The notes under the pieces: model-generated
What the model saw: only the letters and a program-made list of their open reading frames with translations
The model's database searches: none
What the model was told of the DNA's origin: nothing
Assembly (NCBI GenBank): GCA_964558645.1
Contig: CAZLEV010000011.1
Location: 56,385-120,384, forward strand
Reading direction: 5' to 3'
Source of the DNA: an uncultured archaeon
Lineage (GTDB): Archaea; Asgardarchaeota; Thorarchaeia; Thorarchaeales; Thorarchaeaceae
Length of the DNA: 64,000 bases
Made by a program: the position numbers and the translations under genes
Part shown: positions 13,019-48,240 of the stretch, piece after piece
Layout: each line of letters starts with the position of its first letter
Numbering within the stretch: the stretch's first letter is position 1

Positions 13019-14320
13019 ATGGAGAGGATTCCCCTCGAGGCACTACCTGATGCATTACCGGACGGTATAGACATAGAGAATTATGTGATATGCACCTACT
13101 ATGTGGGTCTTCCCCCCTTTATGGATGCAAGACAAGTTGCACATGCTGCGGCAGTTGAGCAGAGCACAGGAACTTGGACAATGGTTCCAGGGGAGACCTT
13201 GGAAGTGCGGAAGCGGCATGTAGCCAAAGTGGTGGGCATCTATGAGGTGCCACAGTACGAATACAGCACCCCAAAGGATATCGAGCGGAGACAGTACATC
13301 ATTCAAGTGGCATATCCGTGGGAGAACTTCGGCAGACAGATTCCGATGCTACTGAGCACAGTCATCGGGAATATATCACTGGGAGGGCGTATCAAGTGTC
13401 TCGATATGCGCTTTCCAAAGTCATGGTTGAAGGGCTTCAAAGGCCCGAAGTTTGGCATCAAGGGACTTCGAAAACTCCTTGGCGTGAAGAAACGACCACT
13501 ACTAAACAACATGATCAAACCATGTGTGTACACATCAGCCAGTATGGGAGCGGATCTGGCCTACCAAGCTGCTGTCGGGGGGGCGGATATTATCAAGGAC
13601 GACGAGCTCCTTGCAGACCCAGAGTTCAACACGCTTGAAGAGAGGATACCGCTGTTCATGGAAGCTTTGGACAAAGCAGATTCAGAGAAAGGAGAGAAGA
13701 CATTATTCACAGTAAACATCACAGACAGTGTCCCCAAGCTGTTCGATAATGCCGACAGGGCAGTTGAACTGGGAGCCAATGCGCTCATGATAAACTTCCT
13801 CGCTGTGGGGTATTCTGCATTCAGACATGTGTGTGAAATGAGTGAGGTTCCAGTCCTTGCACACATGGACATCGCCGGGGCTCTATCGTACTCACCAATA
13901 ACCGGTATTGGAACGAACATCGTGATCGGTAAGCTCCCTAGAATCTGTGGGTCGGACATAACCGTCTTCCCTGCCCCCTACGGGAAAGCACCGCTGCTGA
14001 AGGAACGCTTTCTAGCCATGGCACATCACATGATCATGCCTCTCAGAAACATCAACCCCAGTATGCCCATGCCCAGTGGCGGAATATCTCAGGGTATGGT
14101 GGAGGAGGCGGTGGACGATCTGGGACCAGACATCGTGATTGGGTCAGGTGGAGCGATACACGCCCATCCAGATGGTCCAAGAGCTGGAGCAATGGCATTT
14201 AGGCAGGCCATTGAGGCCAAGATGAAAGGGATTCACGTCAGTGTCTATGCCAAGGAACACGAAGAGCTGAAGAAAGCTATGGACTCATGGGGCTCCGGTC
14301 GGACTGGATTCGACCTGTAA
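13019..14320 (+). CDS. RuBisCO-like protein (form IV, RLP)
   Basis: EQSTGTW, GPKFGI, IKP, GGADIIKDDELL (carbamylated-Lys motif), SGG, GGAIHAHPDG; lacks the R295 and H327 equivalents of true RuBisCOs. Confidence 0.88.
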   Translation: MERIPLEALPDALPDGIDIENYVICTYYVGLPPFMDARQVAHAAAVEQSTGTWTMVPGETLEVRKRHVAKVVGIYEVPQYEYSTPKDIERRQYIIQVAYPWENFGRQIPMLLSTVIGNISLGGRIKCLDMRFPKSWLKGFKGPKFGIKGLRKLLGVKKRPLLNNMIKPCVYTSASMGADLAYQAAVGGADIIKDDELLADPEFNTLEERIPLFMEALDKADSEKGEKTLFTVNITDSVPKLFDNADRAVELGANALMINFLAVGYSAFRHVCEMSEVPVLAHMDIAGALSYSPITGIGTNIVIGKLPRICGSDITVFPAPYGKAPLLKERFLAMAHHMIMPLRNINPSMPMPSGGISQGMVEEAVDDLGPDIVIGSGGAIHAHPDGPRAGAMAFRQAIEAKMKGIHVSVYAKEHEELKKAMDSWGSGRTGFDL

Positions 14321-27055: not shown

Positions 27056-27604
27056 TCAGCCCGAACCAGACTCTCTGTTATGAACAAGGGTCGTTCCCAG
27101 CTGTTCGAATACATCGAGAATCCCCTCACCAGTCTTAGCTGAAGACTCAAGATAGGGCATTCCGTGAGCATCTGCGAACTCCCTGCCTTCAGATGGAGCA
27201 ACAACCCTATCAGGAAGGTCAGTCTTGTTTGCCACCAGCACTAAGGGAATGTCCTTGCCGATTGCTTTTCTGAGTTCGTCAAGCCACTCCTCGAGCACGA
27301 TGAACGTTCTGCGTCGGCTGACATCGTAGACCAGCAGTCCGCCGCTCGAACCTCGGTAGTACATCGGACGAAGAATCTGAAAACGGCTTTGCCCTGCCAC
27401 ATCCCAGATCTGCAATTTCACAGTGAGGGAATTACCGTGCATGGATGGAATCTCTATATTCTTGACTGCAAACTGGCTTCCGATTGTTGTCTTGTAGTCT
27501 GTTCGAAAGAAACCGTGTGAAAACCTGGTGACAATTGCAGTCTTACCAACTGCACCTTCACCAAGGACAACAATCTTGAACAGATAGTCATACGAGCTAC
27601 TCAT
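27056..27604 (-). CDS. Rab-like small GTPase (Ras superfamily)
   Basis: YDYLFKIV, G1 GEGAVGKT, G2 TIG, G3 WDVAGQ, YYRG, G4 NKTD, G5 SAK; no C-terminal Cys. Confidence 0.95.
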   Translation of the reverse strand: MSSSYDYLFKIVVLGEGAVGKTAIVTRFSHGFFRTDYKTTIGSQFAVKNIEIPSMHGNSLTVKLQIWDVAGQSRFQILRPMYYRGSSGGLLVYDVSRRRTFIVLEEWLDELRKAIGKDIPLVLVANKTDLPDRVVAPSEGREFADAHGMPYLESSAKTGEGILDVFEQLGTTLVHNRESGSG

Positions 27605-28737: not shown

Positions 28738-30117
28738 ATGTCTGACAGGCTCTTTGGAACTACGGGCGTGCGTAAGATCTACGGTGAGGAGTTCTCCCTT
28801 GATATGGCCCTTGACCTTGGTCGGGCACTTGGCACATATCTCAAGAGAGGAAACGTGCTTCTTGCCCGAGACGCAAGGACCACCGGCTCCATGGTTGAAG
28901 ATGCATTCTCAGCGGGTGTGCTCTCAACAGGAGTCAACGTCCTGCGAGCTGGCGTGGTTCCAACCCCGACTTTGGCATTCCTCACAAGCTATCTGGATAT
29001 GGACACAGGAGTTATGGTCACAGCATCTCATAACCCCCCTGAGTACACGGGCATCAAGTTCTGGGGTTCAGACAGCATGGGCTACACTCCTGATATTGAA
29101 AGACGACTCGAGGAGATATACCATTCACATGACTTCATAGCAGCTGCATGGGACGGGCTGGGAGAGGAGGAATATCTCGATGCACCCGAGTGGACACACA
29201 TCGATGAGCTTGTGAAACGGACCGATGTTGCGGCCATTCGTCAGAAGCAATTCAAAGTAGTTGTGGATCCAGGGAATGGAGCGGCGTGTGTGCTCACACC
29301 CTATCTCATGAGAGAGCTGGGTTGCAGCGTCATCACGCTCAACGGTCAGCTGGATGGACACTTCCCCGGTCGAGAGAGCGAACCGGATGAATCAACACTT
29401 GTTGACCTAGCCAACATGGTCAAATCATCAGGAGCCGACCTTGGCATTGCTCATGACGGGGATGGGGACAGAGTCGTCTTCGTGACTGAACACGGAGAGG
29501 TTGTCAGAGGAGACCGTACTATCGCTCTTCTTGCTCGAGACTCTCTCCAGAGAGAGCAGGGCGGAGTCATCGTCACCACTGTTGACAGCTCAAAGGTCGT
29601 GGATGAGACCGTTGAGCAAGCAGGAGGACGCACAATCAGGACGCCTGTCGGCGACATTCAAGTTGCTGTTAAGATAAGAGAAGAGAAAGGTCTGTTCGGA
29701 GGAGAGGCCTGTGGGGTCTTCATCCATCCAGACTTCCATCTGGCGCCAGAGCCCTTTCTCACTTCCTGCCATGTTCTTGAGATGATGGCATCACAAGGAA
29801 AGGGTTTCGGAGAGCTGATCTCAGAGATACCCGTATATCCCCTCAAGAAATCGAAGCTGCAATGCCCCAACAGCAAGAAACCTGCAGTGATGGATAGGCT
29901 TGCGGAAGTTCTACCAGATGAAATGAATGATATTACTGACATACTTACTGTGGACGGGCTTGGCATATCCCTCAAAGGGGGGTGGCTCCTTGTCAGGCCG
30001 TCAGGTACCGAACCAGTCATCAGAATAACATGCGAAGCCCAGTCTGAAGAGGCCGTTCAAGAGATTCTTGACAGAGCAACAAGTGTCATCAGCAACACGA
30101 TTGCGACGACTAGTTGA
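28738..30117 (+). CDS. glmM: Phosphoglucosamine mutase / phosphohexomutase
   Basis: LFGTTGVR, TASHNP, DGDGDR, GEACG, RPSGTEP; sugar specificity inferred. Confidence 0.82.
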   Translation: MSDRLFGTTGVRKIYGEEFSLDMALDLGRALGTYLKRGNVLLARDARTTGSMVEDAFSAGVLSTGVNVLRAGVVPTPTLAFLTSYLDMDTGVMVTASHNPPEYTGIKFWGSDSMGYTPDIERRLEEIYHSHDFIAAAWDGLGEEEYLDAPEWTHIDELVKRTDVAAIRQKQFKVVVDPGNGAACVLTPYLMRELGCSVITLNGQLDGHFPGRESEPDESTLVDLANMVKSSGADLGIAHDGDGDRVVFVTEHGEVVRGDRTIALLARDSLQREQGGVIVTTVDSSKVVDETVEQAGGRTIRTPVGDIQVAVKIREEKGLFGGEACGVFIHPDFHLAPEPFLTSCHVLEMMASQGKGFGELISEIPVYPLKKSKLQCPNSKKPAVMDRLAEVLPDEMNDITDILTVDGLGISLKGGWLLVRPSGTEPVIRITCEAQSEEAVQEILDRATSVISNTIATTS

Positions 30118-30209: not shown

Positions 30210-30620
30210 ATGAGTAATGGCGATGATGATTTCATCAAATCGGAGTTTGAATGGGCTCTGAAGGACCCTACCGAAGAGAAGCTACGAGGCCTCGGTGAGA
30301 TTGTCGATACCATCACAAAACGGCTTGTTGAAGCAATAACTGAGCTTCAGAGCGACCTCTACGAGCTTCAGACTGCCGTACAGAGTATGGAGTCGAAACT
30401 GAACTCGCTGGACTCCCGGGTGGCAACTGGAGGAGTGGCACCATCAGCTACATCTTCTGCATCCTCAGCATCTTCCGCAACAGAAACTCCAGATGAACCC
30501 ATGGCTAGAGCACCGACGCCCAAGCCGGCTCCGGCTGCAGGCCCGGGCGGCATGATGTCTGAACTGAAACAGCTGCTTGCTGCAAGGAGAAGAAAAGCTG
30601 AGGGTGGAGGCGGGGAATAA
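30210..30620 (+). CDS. Small coiled-coil protein with Ala/Ser/Pro linker and C-terminal Ena/VASP-like F-actin-binding (WH2-like) motif
   Basis: Heptad LQSDLYELQTAVQSMESKLNSL; tail GGMMSELKQLLAARRRKAE; TATA-like TTTATAG near 30161. Confidence 0.7.
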   Translation: MSNGDDDFIKSEFEWALKDPTEEKLRGLGEIVDTITKRLVEAITELQSDLYELQTAVQSMESKLNSLDSRVATGGVAPSATSSASSASSATETPDEPMARAPTPKPAPAAGPGGMMSELKQLLAARRRKAEGGGGE

Positions 30621-30625
30621 CCCGC

Positions 30626-31300
30626 TCAGATCAAGCGTCGGACATGGTTTCCCGGATAGAACGGGCCTGTATGTTTAAGTAGAGAAACGGAGAATGCTTC
30701 GGCCCTCTCGCAGGCCGATTGGACTCCTCTCAACCGGGTTCGTGCATCGTAGAATCTCTCGTAGTAACCGCCAGCCTTGCTGGTCTGGCTCTTGTGACAG
30801 CGTAATCCCTCTAATGCGGTATTATAGCTCTCAGTGACACTGACCATCACATTAGGTCGTGAGAGAAGAGTGTTGACCTCCATATGATAGATACGACTGA
30901 TTCGATGCGCTCTCTCGAACCGAGTCACGTGTGATGCCCATTCAGCTGCGTCGGCAACGATCTGCGCGCATGCTACATGGTTTCTATTGTAATCCTTCTC
31001 GGAGTGGGTGATAATAATGTCTGGACGCCACTCGAGGATTGCTTGAATGATTAGCTTCTCCACACTCCTGTCAACAGCAAAGTCATCTCGCTCCCCTGTC
31101 AGAAGATTACGGATACCTAGTATCTTACATGCCTCCTTCAGCTCTCGGTTTCGAGCTGGACTTCCTGTGAGGCACAACAGATCCACGTCTACTCCCTGAC
31201 TGCTATGAGACGCTATCGTTCCACCGGCACCCAAGCATTCATCATCGGGATGCGCAGTAACAACGAGAATTGAGCCATCGTCAGAGGGATTCATGGTCAT
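30626..31300 (-). CDS. bshB1: PIG-L family deacetylase, BshB1-like (GlcNAc-malate deacetylase)
   Basis: AHPDDECLGAGGT, RNRE..A..ILG, RPDIIITH, AEAF; divergent from bshA; second motif is non-canonical NRNH. Confidence 0.72.
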   Translation of the reverse strand: MTMNPSDDGSILVVTAHPDDECLGAGGTIASHSSQGVDVDLLCLTGSPARNRELKEACKILGIRNLLTGERDDFAVDRSVEKLIIQAILEWRPDIIITHSEKDYNRNHVACAQIVADAAEWASHVTRFERAHRISRIYHMEVNTLLSRPNVMVSVTESYNTALEGLRCHKSQTSKAGGYYERFYDARTRLRGVQSACERAEAFSVSLLKHTGPFYPGNHVRRLI

Positions 31301-31383
31301 CTCAGACCCAGTTCTACTAATCAAGCTTTGGCCTGACCATTTGTCTTAAAACCCCCCGTTTGCTGTTCAGTACAGTGACCAGC

Positions 31384-32544
31384 ATGAGGATAGGAGTCAA
31401 TCTATATGCCTCAGTGGGCGGCTCAGGCTACCTCGCGACGCGCTTGGGACAGCACCTTGCAGACCGTGGCCACGAGATTCATTTCATCACCTACCAGAGG
31501 CCGTTTAGCCTGATGTGGGAGCAAGCACGAGGTGTCTACGTTGACCTCGTGGACAGTTTTGATTATCCGCTCTTCAAGTCAACTGGAACCCCCTACACCA
31601 TGACCCTTACATCAAAGATTGTAAAAGTGGCTCGCGATTCCAAACTCAATCTCATCCACTCGCACTATGCAATCCCTCATGCTATGGCCGCATACATGGC
31701 AAGAGAGATCATCGGTATCCCCTATGTGGTAACACTACACGGTTCAGATGTCCACACCCTTGGACTCGATCCTGCATATCGCCCCGTTGTTAAGCACACG
31801 GTAGAAGAAGCAGATGGTGTCACAGCAGTTTCAGAGTTCCTCCAGAAGAAGGCCTATGAGGAACTCGGCATCGAAAGGGAGATTCATGTCGTCCCTAACT
31901 TCATCGATGTTCAAAGATTCACTCCCATGGAGGGAGTGCGACTCACAGTGGAGAGCGGCTGTGTGTCTCTTCGCAGATCAGAGGAACCCGAAGATCTTCA
32001 TCCAGACGAGATGGTGCTGTTGCATGCATCGAACTTCCGTCAAGTGAAGAGAGTGGTCGAGCTCGTAGAGATCATGAGGATCGTAGTCGACCACTATCCT
32101 GATACGCGGCTAGTGATTGCAGGGGATGGACCCACCCGCATGCATGTTGAGCGACGAATAGAGGCCCTTGACCTCTGCCAGAATGTGCATCTCTTGGGAG
32201 TGAAGAGCAACATGAGAGAGATCATGTGTTCATCAGATATCTTTCTGCTCAATTCTACCTTAGAGGGCATGCCACTGGTCCTTTTGGAGGCTATGGCATC
32301 CGAACTACCAGTTATCACGACACCCGCAGGAGGCATACCAGAGCTTGTACGCCCAGGGAAGGACGGTATTGTCACGAAGGGCTTCGAGAAGGAAGAGTTT
32401 GCGGGTGCAATCCTAGAGTTGATAGAACATGATGCCCGAAGAAAAGAACTGGGCAAGGCGGGACGAAAGAGAGTTGTTGAGCAGTACTCAGCTGAGAAGG
32501 TTGTGCCCATGTATGAGAGAGTCTTTGATAGAGCAGTGGAATGA
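31384..32544 (+). CDS. bshA: N-acetyl-alpha-D-glucosaminyl L-malate synthase (GT4)
   Basis: BshA-type motifs GGSG..AT.LG..LA.RGHE.HFIT, YPLF, HYAIPHA, TLHGSD, TAVS, H.SNFR.VKRV. Confidence 0.88.
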   Translation: MRIGVNLYASVGGSGYLATRLGQHLADRGHEIHFITYQRPFSLMWEQARGVYVDLVDSFDYPLFKSTGTPYTMTLTSKIVKVARDSKLNLIHSHYAIPHAMAAYMAREIIGIPYVVTLHGSDVHTLGLDPAYRPVVKHTVEEADGVTAVSEFLQKKAYEELGIEREIHVVPNFIDVQRFTPMEGVRLTVESGCVSLRRSEEPEDLHPDEMVLLHASNFRQVKRVVELVEIMRIVVDHYPDTRLVIAGDGPTRMHVERRIEALDLCQNVHLLGVKSNMREIMCSSDIFLLNSTLEGMPLVLLEAMASELPVITTPAGGIPELVRPGKDGIVTKGFEKEEFAGAILELIEHDARRKELGKAGRKRVVEQYSAEKVVPMYERVFDRAVE

Positions 32545-34280
32545 TAGAACGGAGATGCCAACTTTTGAGAGAGAGCGTAGCTGAAGTCTATAAAGACTAC
32601 ATCTGGAAAGAGGAAATGCAGGATGCCGCCCAGTATCTCTATAGTTGCCCGCCAGTCTATTTCGGCGGTCTCAAGGAGAGAGTAGGAAGACTCCGAGAGG
32701 AATACTTAGAGACGCACTGGTTCACTGACGAACGAATGCAGATACTTGAGAACACCCTGGAAAGGACAAGTCGCAACCTGGGTGCTCTAACACCAGCAGT
32801 TAGGAGTAGAATCTCAGAGCTTCGACATGGAGCCATAGAAGGAGCACACCAGAGCATTGCCTTCGGCGGCCCATGCTATGTTCTGAACAAGGCAGCAACA
32901 GCATCGATACTTGCAGATGTCACGTCTGATGATGATATTCGCGTAGCCGCGTATTTCTTCGTTGCAGACTATGATGAGGTCCAGGCTGAACTGATCAACA
33001 CAAGGACCCCACTGCTGGGATCTTCAGGCAATCTGCTCAGTATTCCGGTTCCCAAGGAGTTCAAGCATTCGCCCGTCAGTGTTCTACCCCTTCCTGAGCA
33101 TACTTGGTACGAAGAGGCAGAAGAGAGTATCCGGATGGGGTACAGACCGATGATCAAAGACCTCGACAACAGGGCGCGCATCATATACGAAGAGAGACTC
33201 GAGCAGATTCTCTCCATAACAAGATGGAGTTTCGTAAACTCAGACACACTGGGGGAATGGGCGCGACGAATCCTAGCCCGTCTGTTCAATGTCGAGGGAA
33301 ACTTGGGAATACCAATTGTCGCGTATTCAGACCCTCAGATACGGAAGCTGGCAACTCTTGGAATGGAATTCCTTCTGAAGAAACAGAACCGAGAGAGATT
33401 CTTAGAGGCCCAGGATCAAGCAACCGACAGAATCATCGAACTAGGTCTGGAGCCCGGCTCGGGGAGAAGAGATCGCTCCTACGTTCCGTTTCTATACGAG
33501 TGTCCGGAGAAAGGCTGCAACAGGAGTAGATTCGAACTGCAGTATTATGCCCGGGAAGACACTGCGACGCTGTCAGGTAGGTGCCCGTCATGCCATCAGT
33601 ACTTCACAATCGAAGTTTCAGCAGATAATCCTGACTTGAGTGACCATGCCGACTACCTATCTCCTCGTGTAGACTCGCGGCAGTTCATTGTGGACATGAT
33701 GATTCCCACTATGTGCCATATTGGAGGGCCAGGTGAGACCGCCTATTACGCCCAGGTGATTCCCGCTGCCGACGCTCTAGACATCCCATTCCCGGAGTTT
33801 GTGAAGTATCCACGGCTCTTCTTCAACACACCATGGAGTGAAGCTCTGGCAAACCAGTTGGAGAACAGGGGTGAGCCGGTCTTGCATGGTCGCACGCTCT
33901 TCAAACTGCTGGGGAAGTCAAGTGCAGCCAGAAGAAAAGAGAACTATGATGAGATGAACTCCGCCATCAAGAAACTGGGCAACCATATCAGAGACCGGTA
34001 CGATGTCATAGTGAAGAGGGTGGCGGAGATAGAGAAGCAGAGAGAAAACTCAAGCGGTGAAGAAGACGAGGAACTTCAAGGTATCAAGTTTGACCTCGAA
34101 ATGTACCTCAGCTGGGCATATGGGCGATATTCTGCAGAGAAGTCCGTGCAGGAGTCCTCTTGGTCCTGGATAGAGTGGGCAATAAACTCTGGACTGGCGG
34201 ATCTGTTCGGTCCTTACGAGAGAAGCTATGTTGAGCAACTTAAGAATGGAGCCACGATGTGGATAAACTTCATGACATAG
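32541..34280 (+). CDS. bshC: Bacillithiol biosynthesis cysteine-adding enzyme BshC-like
   Basis: GAHQ...GGPCY..NKA, D.DEV, SPRVDSR, P..CHIGGPGETAYYAQ, coiled coil, VQE; ATGA overlap with bshA. Confidence 0.82.
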   Translation: MIERRCQLLRESVAEVYKDYIWKEEMQDAAQYLYSCPPVYFGGLKERVGRLREEYLETHWFTDERMQILENTLERTSRNLGALTPAVRSRISELRHGAIEGAHQSIAFGGPCYVLNKAATASILADVTSDDDIRVAAYFFVADYDEVQAELINTRTPLLGSSGNLLSIPVPKEFKHSPVSVLPLPEHTWYEEAEESIRMGYRPMIKDLDNRARIIYEERLEQILSITRWSFVNSDTLGEWARRILARLFNVEGNLGIPIVAYSDPQIRKLATLGMEFLLKKQNRERFLEAQDQATDRIIELGLEPGSGRRDRSYVPFLYECPEKGCNRSRFELQYYAREDTATLSGRCPSCHQYFTIEVSADNPDLSDHADYLSPRVDSRQFIVDMMIPTMCHIGGPGETAYYAQVIPAADALDIPFPEFVKYPRLFFNTPWSEALANQLENRGEPVLHGRTLFKLLGKSSAARRKENYDEMNSAIKKLGNHIRDRYDVIVKRVAEIEKQRENSSGEEDEELQGIKFDLEMYLSWAYGRYSAEKSVQESSWSWIEWAINSGLADLFGPYERSYVEQLKNGATMWINFMT

Positions 34281-34289
34281 AAGAACAAG

Positions 34290-34311
34290 CGCCCCGGTTG
34301 GCACCGGGGCG
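34290..34311. terminator. GC hairpin between convergent bshC and aminotransferase genes
   Basis: CGCCCCGGT-TGGC-ACCGGGGCG 9-bp stem; followed by CTTGTTCTT on the minus strand. Confidence 0.65.
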
Positions 34312-34327
34312 GACAGAGATGAAATGT

Positions 34328-35602
34328 TTAGAGTTCTTCCGAGAGAAGCCGTCCGAGGCGTTCCATCCCCTCAGAGATGACCTCTGGTCTTGCATAGCAG
34401 AATCCTAATCGCATAGTATTGGCCTGAGGGACCGATGGCTTCAACTCGTTCCCGTTCTCAGTTAGAGAGTAGCCCGTGATTGGATAGAATGGTCCGCCGG
34501 GCACATAGAGAACTTCGTTTGGCAATGCAACTTCTTGCATGAACCTACTACTGTTGAAGTCCTTCTTCTCGCTCTCCCACCAGATGAAGAAGCCTCCGGT
34601 TGGGTCCGTCCTCTTGCCACCAGGGAAAGACTCGTCCATTGCCTTGGCCATCGCCAAATAGCGTTCCTTGTACTTGGGGACAATCTCCTTCATCGCCACA
34701 TCGATGTAGTTCCTGTAGTATTCGTCCAGTATGCGTTGTATGAGTGTTGAGGTACATAGGTCCAAGTAGCCCTTGTCTTTGAGAACCTGCTCACGCAGAT
34801 TTGGAGGCATAATCGAGTATCCAACTCGTAGAACAGCAGCCTCTTTGCTAGTGGTCCCAAGATACGCAACACGACGATTCTCTTTGTCAAGAGTCTTGAT
34901 TGGCGGCGGGTTCTTCTTGAACTGAATCTCTGCATATGCAGAGTCCTCAACTAGGAGAGTATTGTGATTCTCGCATATGTCAAAGAGGGCCTGACGGCGT
35001 TTCATAGGAAGAGTCGTTCCCTTTGGATTATCGGAGTCCGGCACCACATAGACAATGTCAGGCAGCTTTCCGAACTTCATCTTAGACACATGGATTGCCT
35101 TGTCCACATACTCAGGTATGATTCCATCGAGATCCGTTGGGACGGTTATGATTCTAGCCCCGAGCTTGACCGCAGGAACAAGAAAACCGAGATATGCAGG
35201 CGCGGTGGTCACGATCACATCACCGGGGTCAATCATCGTATCAAGAATCGCATAGATGGCCTGCTGGGAACCATTCGTCACGGATACGCACTCATACTCC
35301 TCCTCGCAGTCTATCGGTATATTCCTGACATCGTGCAGGCGCTTGGCCAGAGTCTTGAGGAACCAAGTCTGGCCGCCTGTAGGCCCATAGTTGAAATCTT
35401 CCAGTGCAAGCTTGGAGTCTTCTTTGTAGCGCTCAGAGAGATCGGCCATTATCTTCGCGAAGATATCTGTCGGGATGATACCAGGTTTCCCGCCTGCGAA
35501 GTAGTAATCAACCTTGTACTTCAAGAGGGCACGGATCTGAGACTCTTCAATAAAAGAGGTCCAGGCTGCAAAATTATACCCGTCTGGATTGGTCATTCGC
35601 AT
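34328..35602 (-). CDS. PLP-dependent aminotransferase class I/II (LysN/Aro8-like)
   Basis: FAGGKP, YGPTGG, TNGSQQ, NPKG, EDSAY, TTSK (PLP Lys), LRVG; GGAGGA before ATG 35602/35596. Confidence 0.9.
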   Translation of the reverse strand: MRMTNPDGYNFAAWTSFIEESQIRALLKYKVDYYFAGGKPGIIPTDIFAKIMADLSERYKEDSKLALEDFNYGPTGGQTWFLKTLAKRLHDVRNIPIDCEEEYECVSVTNGSQQAIYAILDTMIDPGDVIVTTAPAYLGFLVPAVKLGARIITVPTDLDGIIPEYVDKAIHVSKMKFGKLPDIVYVVPDSDNPKGTTLPMKRRQALFDICENHNTLLVEDSAYAEIQFKKNPPPIKTLDKENRRVAYLGTTSKEAAVLRVGYSIMPPNLREQVLKDKGYLDLCTSTLIQRILDEYYRNYIDVAMKEIVPKYKERYLAMAKAMDESFPGGKRTDPTGGFFIWWESEKKDFNSSRFMQEVALPNEVLYVPGGPFYPITGYSLTENGNELKPSVPQANTMRLGFCYARPEVISEGMERLGRLLSEEL

Positions 35603-42704: not shown

Positions 42705-45035
42705 GTGAGCAACGTGATACCACGCCGTGAGAAAGGTGAAAACCTCGACCTAGAGGGAATTGATGTATACACTAAGAACCTGATGGAGTTAAACGCCCAG
42801 AGCCAGAATGCCATTCGGACTTTCGTGCTCCACGATATAGACGACAAAGAGGGGTTCGAGAAGAAACTCACAGAGATGCACGACGCAATGACTAGGCTCT
42901 ATGACCAGGTAGCGAAGTTCTCAGAAGATATAATGACTGAAGACTTTGACATCGCGTATCTAAGAAATCGAATCGCACTGGCGGAGGGAGAATCAAAACA
43001 GCAGATGGAAGAGGCGCTTGATGAGCTTCAGGTAAAATCGGAGAAGAACCTGGGCGAAGTGTGGATGGCAAAGGTCATGGCTTGGTTGCATCAAGCTGCC
43101 GCCGCAAGCAGCCCGTTCATCGATACGGAGAACAAAGAGAAAGCAGATGGTGCCTCCCGATATCTCTCTCAAGTTTATACAATGCTCGAGAGATCTTTCG
43201 CAGCAGTTGCCAGAAAGACAGAGGGAACAACCAAGCTGCGGCGAGTGGCCCTCGGGCACATGGCGCACAAGCTCATCAAAGAATCCGGCCACAAAGGTAA
43301 AGAAGAACTGGCAGAGATTATTGGTAAGAACAAAGCAGCAGAAGCCGAGTTCTATGATGATTTTCTGAAGGAACTAATCGGAAAAGAGAGTACCTTCAGG
43401 CAGGCGTTCAATCCCTTTGACGAAATCATCTGGAGAGATATTCTGAATACATATGTCTTTGAGCGAGCAACAGACCTCTATAACGAAGCCATCCCAAACC
43501 TCGACAAGAGTTCAAGAGTGTCAAAGGACAAGATTGCCATGACCAAGTCATGGAAGCAGAATACGGCGGGACTGAGTGAGGTCTATCTTGCCATGACCTA
43601 TACTGATATTGCAGACTCCCAGATGCGCGACGGAAATCTTGAGGATGCATCAAAACTCTACATGACGGCATCCAATGCTTTTGGGCGAGCAGAGAAGTGC
43701 TTCGCTGAGGTCATGTCCCTTCAGGGCAATGCTGAACAGTCACGGAATGACAAGGAGCACAAGAAGGCACAGGCGCTGTTCTGTAAGGCCGAAGCAGCAG
43801 TAGGCACACTCTCTGATCTTCTCAGGATAAACAACAGAGATGAAGCAATCGTTGTTCTGGAAGAAATCTTCGAAGACCTTCGAAAGTCCGAGAATCTTTC
43901 AAAAACACGAGAGCTCACGGGAGCCGTCAAGGAAAACCTCCGAATCTTTTCATTTGTTGAAAACCAACTAAAGAAGAGTCAGAGCACAACTGATTCGATT
44001 ATTGACCAGATCGAGCTTGCAAAAGGAATACGAAGGGAGGGACTGATTCAAGACGTCAACAAATCACTGGACGATACAACCTCCCTGATGACGAATGATC
44101 CTCCGAAGGCCCTAGAGTCGCTGCGTGAAGGACTGACAAGCCTGGGCATTCTGCTCAGTCTCGAGAGGGAAGATGACGAGATCACACTTTTGCGTAATCG
44201 AACTATTGCCCTACTGAACAACGTGAAATATGTGATTCAGTTCAGACTCAGCTCTCAGCTTCAAACCGGTGTGAATTTCATCCAATCAAGAATACTGGAG
44301 AACCTTCATGCCAAAGACGCTGCGGAGTATTACAAGGTAATTGGAGAGTTGGAGCAAGCAGAAGAACTGACGGATCTGGGAAAGCTGGCCGTTGCGACAG
44401 CCTATGCCTCAGAGGCACAGATATTTGCGAGACAATCAGAACAGTGGGCATTCAGAGCACAGCTTGAACGAACGGGGGCGCTCAGCAGGCTCGAAGATGA
44501 GATTGCCCAGATTGAGGAAGACGAAGAGGCCCTACCAAACGCAATACAAGCTCATGATACTTGTATTGAACGTATCAAGCATACCATGGCAGCATTCCAG
44601 TCTGCCGCAAAGGAACTGGATGGTGTTCAAAGACAGGATATCCGAAAGAAGAACAATGTGGAAGACCAGGTCAAACAGCTTCAAGGCGTAGTGATGAAGT
44701 TCAAGGGAGATCTCTCTCGGCTTGAGGGAGCAAAGAGTGATTTCATGGCCGAGTATGCATCCATGAAAGGAGAGGGGTCGAAAGCTCGAAAGCACTACAC
44801 TGACGCCAGTGATTGGCTAAGACAGGCGGTGGGGAGCTACTCATATGCTACACAGGTATTCCAACAGCTTGGCGACGCGAATGCCGCTCAGAATGTTGAT
44901 ACCCGAGCCAAGACTGCAGATCTTCTCGCCAGGTCGGTCTGGGACAATCGCCAGAAACTGGAGAGACAGCAGGAACCGAAATACAAGAGTCAGGCCGAAC
45001 TCGCAGCTCTGTATCTTGGAACAACTGGAGACTAG
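42705..45035 (+). CDS. Large all-helical (TPR/alpha-solenoid-like) protein
   Basis: 776 aa, rich in A/E/K/L; repeated A..LY..A...F..A helix-pair pattern; no TM segment. Confidence 0.75.
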   Translation: MSNVIPRREKGENLDLEGIDVYTKNLMELNAQSQNAIRTFVLHDIDDKEGFEKKLTEMHDAMTRLYDQVAKFSEDIMTEDFDIAYLRNRIALAEGESKQQMEEALDELQVKSEKNLGEVWMAKVMAWLHQAAAASSPFIDTENKEKADGASRYLSQVYTMLERSFAAVARKTEGTTKLRRVALGHMAHKLIKESGHKGKEELAEIIGKNKAAEAEFYDDFLKELIGKESTFRQAFNPFDEIIWRDILNTYVFERATDLYNEAIPNLDKSSRVSKDKIAMTKSWKQNTAGLSEVYLAMTYTDIADSQMRDGNLEDASKLYMTASNAFGRAEKCFAEVMSLQGNAEQSRNDKEHKKAQALFCKAEAAVGTLSDLLRINNRDEAIVVLEEIFEDLRKSENLSKTRELTGAVKENLRIFSFVENQLKKSQSTTDSIIDQIELAKGIRREGLIQDVNKSLDDTTSLMTNDPPKALESLREGLTSLGILLSLEREDDEITLLRNRTIALLNNVKYVIQFRLSSQLQTGVNFIQSRILENLHAKDAAEYYKVIGELEQAEELTDLGKLAVATAYASEAQIFARQSEQWAFRAQLERTGALSRLEDEIAQIEEDEEALPNAIQAHDTCIERIKHTMAAFQSAAKELDGVQRQDIRKKNNVEDQVKQLQGVVMKFKGDLSRLEGAKSDFMAEYASMKGEGSKARKHYTDASDWLRQAVGSYSYATQVFQQLGDANAAQNVDTRAKTADLLARSVWDNRQKLERQQEPKYKSQAELAALYLGTTGD

Positions 45036-46953: not shown

Positions 46954-48240
46954 ATGAAGGTCAAACTGAGATATGGTGATGGGAAAGTCGAACTGAATAT
47001 CCCGGAGAAAAACCTGGCAGGACAGGTATCACCCGGAGAGACTGAGACCCTTCCCGATACGATGAGTGAGTTTGAGAGAGTGCTGAACAATCCTCACGGC
47101 CCTCATCTAAAGGATCTGGTAAAGGGAAGAAGTGTCTGTGTCTTGGTTGAGGACCACACACGCGGTGAGCCACATAGAGAATTGCTCAATGCAATATCAC
47201 CACTACTCAGAGACGCCAATCTGGTTCAGTTCATCGTCACAACAGGCTCACACGAGGTGGAACACCCAGGCAATCTTGAGATTGTAGGGATGGCCAAGAG
47301 AGCGGCAAGAGATGCAGGTCTGAGGGATTTCAAAGTCAAGATACATGACTGCCAAGACCCCGATGTTGTAGATTATGGCAAGACATCACGGGGAACCCCG
47401 GTCATAGTAAACGCTGCGGCTGCAAATCATGACGTGTATGTGGCCCTTGCCGATATGAAGGCGCACTACTTTGCTGGTTACTCCAATGCTCTGAAAGACT
47501 TCCTCCCCGGGATTTGTGCTTTCGAGTCGATAGAGGCAAACCATTCAATGGCCCTGAATGCAGACTCGACCTTCGGGCAACACCCGTACCATCCCGACCC
47601 GGACAGAAGGAGCAACCCCCTGGCAGATGATATGCGCGAGGCAATGGAGATGATCACAGAGGATGCGAGAGCTTTCACTCTCTCGGTGGTATCTGCTGGT
47701 GATAGAATTGTGTGGGCTGACGCCGGTCAACTTGAACCTGTTATTGCCCGAGGCATTGAGGTCCTAGATGAGACCTCCAGTTTCACTGTGAAGAGGACTG
47801 CGAAGATTGTAGTGTCTCCGGGTGGTTATCCACAGGACAAGAGCCTCTATCATGCACAGAGAGGACTGGAACTCACTAAGAACGCCGTCGCGGACGGTGG
47901 AGAAGTCCTCTTTCTCGCAGAGTGCAGAGATGGGGTTGCTCCAGAGAGTGCAATACAGAACTTCTACAACAAACTCACTGCACCACTCGATGAAGTCGTA
48001 GAATCAATCAGTGAACAGTATCATCTGTACGAGCACAAGGCCTACAAATTCGCAGACTTGCTCTTACGTCTCTCTTCAATCAAGATGTATACTGAGCTCG
48101 ATAAGGATACAGTGGACAGAGCTCATCTCACCAAGATTGCAGATCCCCAACAGGTCGTTGACGAATGGATTGAAGAGGATCCAGATGTTCAGATTCTGGT
48201 TCTTGATAAGGCAAACAAGCTGGCAGTATACAGTGAGTGA
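46954..48240 (+). CDS. LarA-family nickel-pincer racemase/epimerase (LarA homolog)
   Basis: DHTR, TGSH, HYFAGYS..LK..LPG, NH, SPGGYP.D, AEC.DG. Confidence 0.88.
   Translation: MKVKLRYGDGKVELNIPEKNLAGQVSPGETETLPDTMSEFERVLNNPHGPHLKDLVKGRSVCVLVEDHTRGEPHRELLNAISPLLRDANLVQFIVTTGSHEVEHPGNLEIVGMAKRAARDAGLRDFKVKIHDCQDPDVVDYGKTSRGTPVIVNAAAANHDVYVALADMKAHYFAGYSNALKDFLPGICAFESIEANHSMALNADSTFGQHPYHPDPDRRSNPLADDMREAMEMITEDARAFTLSVVSAGDRIVWADAGQLEPVIARGIEVLDETSSFTVKRTAKIVVSPGGYPQDKSLYHAQRGLELTKNAVADGGEVLFLAECRDGVAPESAIQNFYNKLTAPLDEVVESISEQYHLYEHKAYKFADLLLRLSSIKMYTELDKDTVDRAHLTKIADPQQVVDEWIEEDPDVQILVLDKANKLAVYSE

What the first reader, a model, noticed from the sequence alone, without database searches (positions are those of the whole stretch)
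30626..34280. Apparently complete bacillithiol-type pathway (bshB1 <- -> bshA-bshC) in a probable Asgard archaeon
Seen: a BshA-type GT4 overlapping (ATGA) a BshC-like gene, a PIG-L deacetylase diverging from them across about 80 bp, and a phosphohexomutase two genes upstream. Established: BshA (UDP-GlcNAc + L-malate), BshB (deacetylase) and BshC (Cys addition) make bacillithiol, known from Firmicutes, Deinococcus-Thermus and, as N-methyl-BSH, Chlorobi/Bacteroidetes; known archaeal low-MW thiols are mainly gamma-Glu-Cys, CoA and CoM. Inference: this archaeon makes bacillithiol or a variant, a redox buffer I do not know to have been characterised in archaea. The flanking genes look native archaeal, which argues against a bacterial contaminant.
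Basis: partly seen in the sequence, partly recalled or inferred. Interest (0 to 1): 0.82.

Follow-up and report, generated by a model that had tools for sequence, protein, structure and literature searches.

The report
Archaeal-type bacillithiol genes in Thorarchaeota
Three neighbouring genes in this Asgard archaeon most likely make bacillithiol, a sugar-cysteine antioxidant so far detected only in bacteria; the idea is already in print, but two of the three enzymes belong to divergent, untested archaeal branches.

Summary
Observation confirmed. The genome is Thorarchaeota, and the cluster is native, single-copy and syntenic across the family. The glycosyltransferase is a true BshA (369.7 bits, cut-off 273.7). 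The 579-aa ORF passes Pfam BshC and folds like B. subtilis BshC (Z 32), but falls far below the BshC equivalog cut-off; it carries a four-cysteine zinc ribbon. The PIG-L keeps the metal site but is not a BshB1 orthologue, and it lacks three BshB pocket residues.

In 301 Asgard genomes this PIG-L clade tracks BshA, and the three gene trees broadly agree. The BSSB reductase YpdA occurs only where the triad does. A Bathyarchaeia copy sits beside DinB and thioredoxin genes. All this points to a thiol product. The zinc ribbon aligns with class I lysyl-tRNA synthetase, so it looks ancestral.

It is not a first sighting. A 2020 review and NCBI annotation already flag Asgard BshA/BshC, and this scan found the cluster in several other Thorarchaeota genomes. 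No activity or product has been shown. The ATGA overlap is probably not the real start.

Verdict: new variant of a known pathway; bacillithiol itself about 60%, a cysteinyl-glucosaminide thiol of any kind about 78%.

The parts
30626..31294 (-). Archaeal-type BshB-like PIG-L/LmbE zinc deacetylase, 222 aa; predicted GlcNAc-malate deacetylase
   Evidence: PF02585 80.9 bits. Below BshB1/BshB2 cut-offs. Model closest to BshB structures 2IXD/6ULL/6P2T, Z 28.5-29.1. Only PIG-L found in the genome. Clade co-distributed with BshA.
31295..31383 (.). 89-bp divergent intergenic region with two conserved boxes (31317-31331 and 31336-31351), probably the two archaeal promoters
   Evidence: Both boxes recur in nearly all of 20 Thorarchaeota loci with variable spacing. 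Promoter function is inferred.
31384..32544 (+). BshA, GT4 N-acetylglucosaminyl L-malate synthase, 386 aa
   Evidence: TIGR03999 369.7 bits, cut-off 273.7; next family 151 bits. Top PDB hits are B. anthracis, B. subtilis and S. aureus BshA. 58 of 69 residues invariant in 19 canonical BshA are kept.
32541..34280 (+). Archaeal-type BshC (open frame 579 aa; probable start TTG 32565, 571 aa); predicted cysteine-adding ligase
   Evidence: PF10079 57.5 bits, cut-off 27. TIGR03998 60.7, cut-off 265.8. AlphaFold model (pLDDT 94) matches 4WBD at Z 32.1, rmsd 3.3 over 474 residues. Profile match to canonical BshC 99.9%.
33501..33593 (+). Four-cysteine zinc-ribbon segment (C321, C326, C348, C351) inside BshC; absent from canonical BshC, aligns with the zinc knuckles of class I lysyl-tRNA synthetase
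   Evidence: C321 and C348 invariant in 62 sequences. Gap in all 20 canonical sequences. HHalign to LysRS-I 76%, E 2e-5. Zinc binding itself not shown.
33717..33755 (+). GGPGE-x-x-Y-Y-A-Q motif, shared with canonical BshC (Bacillus G350-E353-Y356) and lacking its Glu in the glycan-cluster BshC-like family
34290..34311 (.). GC-rich hairpin between bshC and the convergent aminotransferase, terminator-like
   Evidence: 9-bp stem, 8 G-C pairs; consensus match only
34328..35596 (-). Class I/II PLP aminotransferase, convergent on bshC; conserved neighbour in Thorarchaeota and Hodarchaeales, link to the pathway unproven
   Evidence: PF00155. Adjacent to bshC in all Thorarchaeota loci and 6 of 6 Hodarchaeales loci. 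Start placed by homologues.
28738..30117 (+). Archaeal phosphoglucosamine mutase GlmM (UDP-GlcNAc supply); neighbour only in Thorarchaeota
   Evidence: TIGR03990 517.6, cut-off 439. Not adjacent in other Asgard families. Two paralogues elsewhere in the genome.

Best explanation
The three genes are an archaeal-type bacillithiol pathway. BshA joins UDP-GlcNAc to L-malate (retaining GT4) to give GlcNAc-malate. The zinc deacetylase removes the acetyl group, using Zn on H15/D18/H106 and D17 as general acid/base. The BshC-fold protein, a stripped-down class I lysyl-tRNA-synthetase-like Rossmann enzyme with degenerate ATP motifs, transfers cysteine from a pre-activated donor to the freed amine. The product is Cys-GlcN-malate or a very close cysteinyl-glucosaminide, serving as cytoplasmic thiol buffer and cofactor for DinB-type thiol transferases. 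Shown here: gene identities, folds, motifs, co-distribution and trees. Inferred: every catalytic step, the cysteine donor (unknown even for bacterial BshC), zinc binding and the physiological role. My odds: malate as acceptor about 0.85, deacetylase role about 0.8, cysteine as the added residue about 0.8; bacillithiol itself about 0.6.
For: BshA passes its equivalog cut-off and keeps the acceptor- and donor-side motifs GGSG, HY, H-G-S-D, NFR-x-x-K, E294 and E302, invariant across 45 sequences. The BshC-like model's best match is B. subtilis BshC (Foldseek E 3e-20, TM 0.72; VIA Z 32.1). It shares Q104, G110, K117, D145, E150, G396, E399, Y402 and Q537-E538 with canonical BshC; the glycan-cluster BshC-like family lacks G110, E150, E399 and QE. 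The PIG-L clade is found in 73/76, 28/28, 17/19, 11/11, 1/1 and 2/3 genomes of families that have this BshA, and in 0/21, 0/68, 0/7 and 0/2 of families that have bshC but no BshA. The 28/28 family was not in the training alignment and its gene is unlinked. The BSSB reductase YpdA scores over cut-off in 8 of 301 Asgard genomes, all in the two families f14 and f5 that carry the full triad. A Bathyarchaeia copy of the same triad is clustered with a CxxC thioredoxin and two DinB genes. This genome has three DinB_2 genes and no GshA-type GCS2 hit.
Against: BshC misses its equivalog cut-off (60.7 against 265.8), has no CC_BshC Pfam hit and alters EDHD to DYD, NVxxR to RVDSR and QER to QES. The deacetylase has lost BshB R109 (Y102) and, in Thorarchaeota only, H110 and D112 (N103, N105), plus an 8-residue cap loop (residue roles from PMC4101496). 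No bacilliredoxin BrxA/B or BrxC and no YpdA was found in this genome or in the Thorarchaeota searched. Related archaeal BshC proteins occur without BshA, with a GT2 instead or in glycan clusters, so the fold is not tied to bacillithiol. Kin share gene sets, so the co-distribution counts are not independent events.
Confidence: 0.78

Rival explanations
1. Same three-step chemistry, but BshC adds an amino acid other than cysteine, or another acyl group. The product is then an aminoacyl-glucosaminyl-malate that is not a thiol buffer, for example a metal ligand or solute.
For: The ligase is closer to class I LysRS than canonical BshC is and several pocket motifs differ. A third zinc-ribbon BshC-like family works in glycan clusters. 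No Brx or YpdA in Thorarchaeota.
Against: It keeps the GPGE, E150 and QE residues that separate canonical BshC from the glycan family. YpdA, DinB and thioredoxin genes accompany the archaeal-type triad in other lineages.
Confidence: 0.13
2. The pathway stalls or runs slowly in Thorarchaeota: the deacetylase has lost its His-Asp pair, so cells mainly accumulate GlcNAc-malate as a compatible solute, or the PIG-L acts only as a conjugate amidase.
For: H110/D112 equivalents are Asn/Asn in almost all Thorarchaeota sequences, while Hermodarchaeia keep His/Asp.
Against: Metal ligands, general base and the R53 equivalent are invariant. The gene is intact and syntenic in 73/76 genomes and is the only PIG-L found in this genome. 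bshC is retained.
Confidence: 0.05
3. GT4 plus PIG-L is a GPI-like or archaeal lipid route (GlcNAc onto inositol phospholipid, then deacetylation), as with eukaryotic PIG-A/PIG-L, or a mycothiol-like inositol route.
For: GT4 and PIG-L are the same superfamilies as PIG-A/PIG-L and MshA/MshB (established knowledge), and the host is an Asgard archaeon.
Against: The GT scores 369.7 for BshA against 61.2 for MshA and 72 for GlcNAc-phosphatidylglycerol synthase, with no PIGA Pfam hit. It groups with BshA. The PIG-L model is nearer BshB (Z 29) than MshB (Z 20). BshC has no role in those routes.
Confidence: 0.03
4. Bacterial contamination, or a recent bacterial transfer into this genome.
For: The genome is a MAG with 6.3% estimated contamination. 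One Asgard family (f27) does carry a canonical-type operon.
Against: Flat GC; neighbours include a Rab-like GTPase and archaeal GlmM and PyrF. Same order in over 20 Thorarchaeota loci. All three genes fall in archaeal clades apart from the bacterial sequences sampled (BshA support 99/98).
Confidence: 0.01

Closest known systems
Bacillithiol biosynthesis BshA-BshB1/B2-BshC of Bacillus subtilis, B. anthracis and Staphylococcus aureus (PDB 5D00/3MBO, 6ULL/2IXD, 4WBD; TIGR03999/04001/04000/03998)
   Same: Same three enzyme folds in the same logic. BshA is a family member by cut-off, motifs and tree. BshC has the same overall fold and core GQ/K/D/E/GPGE/QE residues.
   Different: BshC is 16% identical in the structural alignment, has a zinc ribbon and altered motifs. 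The deacetylase is a separate LmbE clade lacking R109 and, in Thorarchaeota, H110/D112. No BrxA/B, BrxC or YpdA found in Thorarchaeota. Product never detected.
Asgard BshA/BshC homologues noted by Rawat and Maupin-Furlow 2020 (PMC7278568)
   Same: This cluster is one of the kind they counted: 39 archaeal InterPro hits for each enzyme, mostly Asgard, with BSH synthesis proposed.
   Different: They gave no bshB, synteny, phylogeny or structure. A 2025 RefSeq survey (PMC12719100) found no archaeon with the full pathway, probably because of the divergence and RefSeq coverage (my inference).
Class I lysyl-tRNA synthetase (PF01921, PDB 1IRX)
   Same: Second-best fold match (Z 20.6, 301 residues aligned). 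The zinc-ribbon cysteines and the RVD and GxG segments align in profile comparison.
   Different: HIGH is degenerate (Y/F-I-x-N), there is no KMSKS and no aligned anticodon domain. The genome has a separate LysRS-I.
Lokiarchaeia GT2-PIG-L-BshC-amidohydrolase block (for example Promethearchaeum syntrophicum MK-D1, DSAG12_01722)
   Same: BshC of the same zinc-ribbon branch, sister to the Thorarchaeota/Heimdall clade.
   Different: A GT2 stands where BshA would, and its PIG-L is BshB1-like. It probably makes a different conjugate.
Mycothiol pathway MshA/MshB/MshC
   Same: GT4, then PIG-L, then a synthetase-derived cysteine ligase.
   Different: MshA 61 bits against a cut-off of 462; MshB 35 against 224. 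The ligase is BshC/LysRS-like, not CysRS-like.

Membership tests
BshA (TIGR03999) | Score above the curated equivalog cut-off | tested here: met
   369.7 against 273.7; next family 151
BshA (TIGR03999) | Conserved active-site motifs GGSG, H-G-T-D, NFR-x-x-K and two Glu | tested here: met
   All present; Thr122 is conservatively Ser121; ESFG reads EGMP
BshA (TIGR03999) | Forms GlcNAc-malate from UDP-GlcNAc and L-malate | not testable with these tools
   Needs an enzyme assay
PIG-L/LmbE deacetylase | PF02585 fold and HxDD + H metal/general-base motif | tested here: met
   80.9 bits against 28.2; H15, D17, D18, H106 invariant (motif)
BshB1 / BshB2 (TIGR04001, TIGR04000) | Score above equivalog cut-off and grouping with BshB1 | tested here: not met
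   82.6 against 182.5; 70.4 against 195.25. Separate clade from Bacillus BshB1
BshB1 / BshB2 (TIGR04001, TIGR04000) | Substrate-contacting Arg53 | tested here: met
   R48 invariant
BshB1 / BshB2 (TIGR04001, TIGR04000) | Arg109, His110 and Asp112 | tested here: not met
   Y102, N103, N105
BshC superfamily (PF10079) | Pfam cut-off and BshC fold (Rossmann core, CP insertions, coiled coil) | tested here: met
   57.5 against 27. 4WBD Z 32.1, rmsd 3.3, 474 aligned. Profile-profile 99.9%, E 3e-36
Canonical BshC (TIGR03998) | Score above equivalog cut-off; membership of the canonical clade | tested here: not met
   60.7 against 265.8. Canonical clade (support 100) excludes it
Canonical BshC (TIGR03998) | Core residues Q, G, K, D, E, GPGE-x-x-Y and QE | tested here: met
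   Q104, G110, K117, D145, E150, G396, E399, Y402, Q537, E538
Canonical BshC (TIGR03998) | Required for adding cysteine to GlcN-malate | not testable with these tools
   Needs complementation; never reconstituted in vitro even for B. subtilis as of PMC5790435
Bacillithiol system | Co-occurrence of bshA, bshB and bshC | tested here: met
Bacillithiol system | Bacilliredoxins BrxA/B/C and reductase YpdA in the same genome | tested here: inconclusive
   Not found in this 93%-complete genome. YpdA is present in other triad-bearing Asgard families. These genes are accessory, not defining
Bacillithiol system | Bacillithiol detected in cells | not testable with these tools
   No detection in archaea reported
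N-methyl-bacillithiol | NmbA methyltransferase | not tested
   No NmbA model or referenced sequence at hand
Class I lysyl-tRNA synthetase | HIGH and KMSKS motifs, PF01921 score | tested here: not met
   No PF01921 hit for the protein. Degenerate motifs in profile alignment
Mycothiol MshA/MshB | Equivalog cut-offs | tested here: not met
   61.2 against 462.5; 34.9 against 224.35

The most novel reading that the evidence does not exclude
The zinc-ribbon archaeal BshC is the ancestral form of the enzyme, derived from class I lysyl-tRNA synthetase. A bacillithiol-type thiol was the inherited low-molecular-weight thiol of early Asgard archaea, including the Heimdallarchaeia lineage that gave rise to eukaryotes, before glutathione replaced it. 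The Thorarchaeota product differs chemically from bacterial bacillithiol, as the altered deacetylase and ligase pockets hint.
Probability: 0.22. Interest if true: 0.78.

Novelty: new variant of a known kind. Interest (0 to 1): 0.47.

Why it matters
If confirmed, it would be the first demonstrated bacillithiol-type thiol in archaea and would name the redox buffer of about half of the Asgard genomes sampled, including Heimdallarchaeia close to eukaryotes. The archaeal BshC bridges class I lysyl-tRNA synthetase and bacterial BshC. That gives a handle on an open question, the reaction and cysteine donor of BshC. A cultured Asgard (P. syntrophicum MK-D1) carries a sister BshC with a swapped glycosyltransferase, so the chemistry of the branch can be examined in cells. 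The surprise is limited: the presence of these genes in Asgard is already published and annotated.

Tried and rejected
Primary structure papers for BshA, BshB and BshC (PMC2943542, PMC4303302, PMC5954418, 10.1002/pro.3617) were not held. I therefore could not check the malate- and citrate-contacting residues of BshA and BshC against the papers, and relied on alignments and reviews.

A first LysRS profile from only 6 sequences gave a weak match (42%) and was rebuilt with 27. That profile is Asgard-only, which may favour the archaeal BshC. A BshA tree with four non-BshA GT4 outgroups had long-branch artefacts and was rebuilt without them. Bacterial sampling is thin (mostly Bacteroidota and Bacillota) and the trees have no firm root.

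'Asgard-only' for the BshC branch was rejected: it also occurs in a Bathyarchaeia group, whose BshA nests among Asgard sequences. The ATGA coupling and a functional tie to glmM were not supported beyond Thorarchaeota. The sigma-70 promoter scan is uninformative for an archaeon. Paper searches for BshC with Asgard, with cysteinyl-tRNA and with lysyl-tRNA synthetase found only the 2020 review or nothing relevant.
Full report
OBSERVATION. The three ORFs are real and intact: a PIG-L gene at 30626-31294 (-), a GT4 at 31384-32544 (+) and a 579-codon frame at 32541-34280 (+). The first two diverge across 89 bp that hold two conserved boxes, probably the promoters. The ATGA overlap is present but not conserved. 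Most orthologues start 10-25 nt after the bshA stop behind a GGAG(G) motif, the database call is 571 aa, and residues 1-7 model poorly, so TTG 32565 is the likelier start. GlmM at 28738-30117 passes the archaeal cut-off.

HOST. The closest named relatives are all Ca. Thorarchaeota, for example TEKIR_12S at 75% identity in BshC. The order Rab, hydrolase, glmM, coiled-coil gene, bshB, bshA, bshC, aminotransferase, pyrF is kept across the Thorarchaeota loci, with small losses among the outer genes. GC is flat. Each gene is single-copy in the genome. Contamination is excluded.

BshA. TIGR03999 scores 369.7 against a cut-off of 273.7, with the next family at 151. The five best PDB hits are the Bacillus and Staphylococcus BshA entries at E 1e-59 to 1e-71, then a drop to 1e-21. 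GGSG, H94-Y95, H119-G-S-D, N217-F-R219, K222, E294 and E302 are invariant in 45 archaeal sequences. 58 of 69 positions invariant in 19 canonical BshA are kept. It is a member of the family.

Deacetylase. It passes PF02585 but not BshB1 or BshB2. By the residue list in PMC4101496, it keeps the metal ligands (H15, D18, H106), the general base D17 and the Arg53 equivalent R48. It lacks Arg109 (Tyr in the whole archaeal clade), an 8-residue loop, and, in Thorarchaeota only, His110 and Asp112. Its model (pLDDT 92.5) is nearest to BshB structures (Z 28.5-29.1), ahead of other LmbE enzymes (Z 26.3 or less) and MshB (Z 20). It forms its own clade. So it is not a BshB1, but it probably does the BshB job. 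A profile of the clade finds one copy in 73/76 Thorarchaeota, 28/28 of f5 (which includes Ca. Heimdallarchaeum; not in the training set, gene unlinked), 17/19 Hermodarchaeia, 11/11 of f14 and 2/3 of f26. It finds none in Hodarchaeales (0/21), f9 Lokiarchaeia (0/68), f24 (0/7) or f29 (0/2) (names). The latter are the families that have bshC but no BshA over cut-off. One exception: the single f18 genome has BshA and BshC but no PIG-L of this clade at that threshold.

BshC. PF10079 is passed (57.5 against 27); TIGR03998 is missed (60.7 against 265.8). The model (pLDDT 94.2) matches B. subtilis BshC best (E 3e-20, TM 0.72; Z 32.1, rmsd 3.3, 474 residues), then class I LysRS 1IRX (Z 20.6). The profile match to canonical BshC is 99.9%. 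A search of 1.8 billion representatives and a tree resolve three groups: canonical (bacteria, some Bathyarchaeia, Asgard f27), the archaeal type to which this protein belongs, and a third zinc-ribbon family found near PIG-L or glycan genes. The archaeal type shares G110, E150, E399 and Q537-E538 with canonical BshC, which the third family lacks. That is my main sequence argument that it does the canonical job. Its four-cysteine segment is absent from canonical BshC. It aligns with the zinc knuckles of LysRS-I: HHalign 76% and E 2e-5, against 0.3-0.7% for canonical profiles of similar depth. I infer that the ribbon is inherited, not inserted. HIGH is degenerate and KMSKS is absent, which suggests that the enzyme does not adenylate cysteine itself. 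That fits the unknown activated donor of bacterial BshC (PMC5790435).

DISTRIBUTION AND HISTORY. The archaeal BshC is found in 165 of 301 Asgard genomes, BshA over cut-off in 134, and the PIG-L clade in 133. The three trees recover the same blocks: Thorarchaeota, Hermodarchaeia, and a Heimdall-labelled group of f5, f26 and f14. The Asgard BshA sequences form one side of a 99/98 branch against the canonical ones. This fits long vertical descent, but the trees are unrooted, the deep order is weak and bacterial sampling is thin. A Bathyarchaeia group has the same triad, with its BshA nested near Hermodarchaeia, so the branch is archaeal and not Asgard-only.

IS THE PRODUCT A THIOL? Three context results say probably yes. 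YpdA, the BSSB reductase, passes its cut-off in 8 of 301 genomes, all in f14 and f5 (only 7 candidates per genome were scored). The Bathyarchaeia triad is clustered with a CxxC thioredoxin and two DinB genes; DinB/YfiT is the superfamily of the bacillithiol transferase BstA (own knowledge). This genome has three DinB_2 genes and no GCS2 hit. Against: no BrxA/B, BrxC or YpdA was found here, so reduction would need another enzyme.

WHAT IS KNOWN. PMC7278568 (2020) reported 39 archaeal hits each for BshA and BshC, mostly Asgard, and proposed archaeal BSH, noting that it had not been detected. A 2021 preprint repeats that BshA is prevalent in Asgards. NCBI names the orthologues BshC. A 2025 RefSeq survey found no complete archaeal pathway. 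I found no paper describing the archaeal PIG-L clade, the zinc ribbon or the LysRS link. This scan has noted the cluster, the ribbon and the GT2 variant on other genomes; those notes are not independent evidence, and I saw each only after reaching the same reading myself.

VERDICT. A real, native, archaeal variant of the bacillithiol pathway. It works like BshA-BshB-BshC; by strict tests only BshA is a family member. Confidence 0.78 for a cysteinyl-glucosaminide thiol, about 0.6 for bacillithiol itself.

Noticed in passing
L151:5361-9743 (P. syntrophicum MK-D1, CP042905.2); L074, L079: Some Lokiarchaeia carry GT2, BshB1-like PIG-L, archaeal BshC and an amidohydrolase, with no BshA found. This is a rewired pathway in a cultured strain.
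   Followed up: partly
L057-L061, L092 (Hodarchaeales, f22): Archaeal bshC in 19/21 genomes, with no BshA over cut-off and no archaeal-type bshB. It is convergent on the same aminotransferase as window 34328-35596. An unlinked BshB1-like PIG-L (L164) and GT2 genes exist, so the partner is open.
   Followed up: partly
L094-L098 (Asgard f27); L152 (Bathyarchaeia CP070649.1): A second, canonical-type bshC-bshB1-bshA operon in archaea, implying a separate acquisition.
   Followed up: partly
L168:4999-5943; L152:5873-6889; L151:8754-9743: An Amidohydro_2 gene lies next to bshC in three different archaeal cluster types. Homologues exist elsewhere in this genome (C1:143859-144734, C12:22381-23301). 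It could be a fourth pathway component.
   Followed up: partly
L086:7306-9015; L147; L148; L150: A third zinc-ribbon BshC-like family lacking GPGE/QE, near PIG-L or sugar-nucleotide and glycan genes, and even closer to LysRS-I in profile comparison (96%).
   Followed up: partly
L156-L158 (f14 genomes G015, G036, G247): YpdA/Bdr over cut-off in Heimdall-labelled genomes that have the archaeal triad.
   Followed up: partly
window 30210-30620 (+): Small protein with coiled coil, Ala/Pro-rich linker and a conserved basic C-terminal helix, syntenic across Thorarchaeota, with no Pfam hit over cut-off. Another note of the scan calls it VASP-like.
   Followed up: no
window 27056-27604 (-): Rab-like small GTPase (Pfam Ras 163.5 bits), a eukaryotic-signature gene, syntenic with the cluster in Thorarchaeota.
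   Followed up: no
window 13019-14320 (+): RuBisCO large-chain family protein between formate-tetrahydrofolate ligase and an FGGY kinase.
   Followed up: no
window 31960-31990 (+), inside bshA: Thorarchaeota BshA has an insertion of about 15 residues in the inter-domain linker with a conserved ESGCV motif, longer than in other BshA.
   Followed up: no
window 46954-48240 (+) and 42705-45035 (+): A LarA (lactate racemase) family gene, and a 776-aa ORF with no Pfam match.
   Followed up: no
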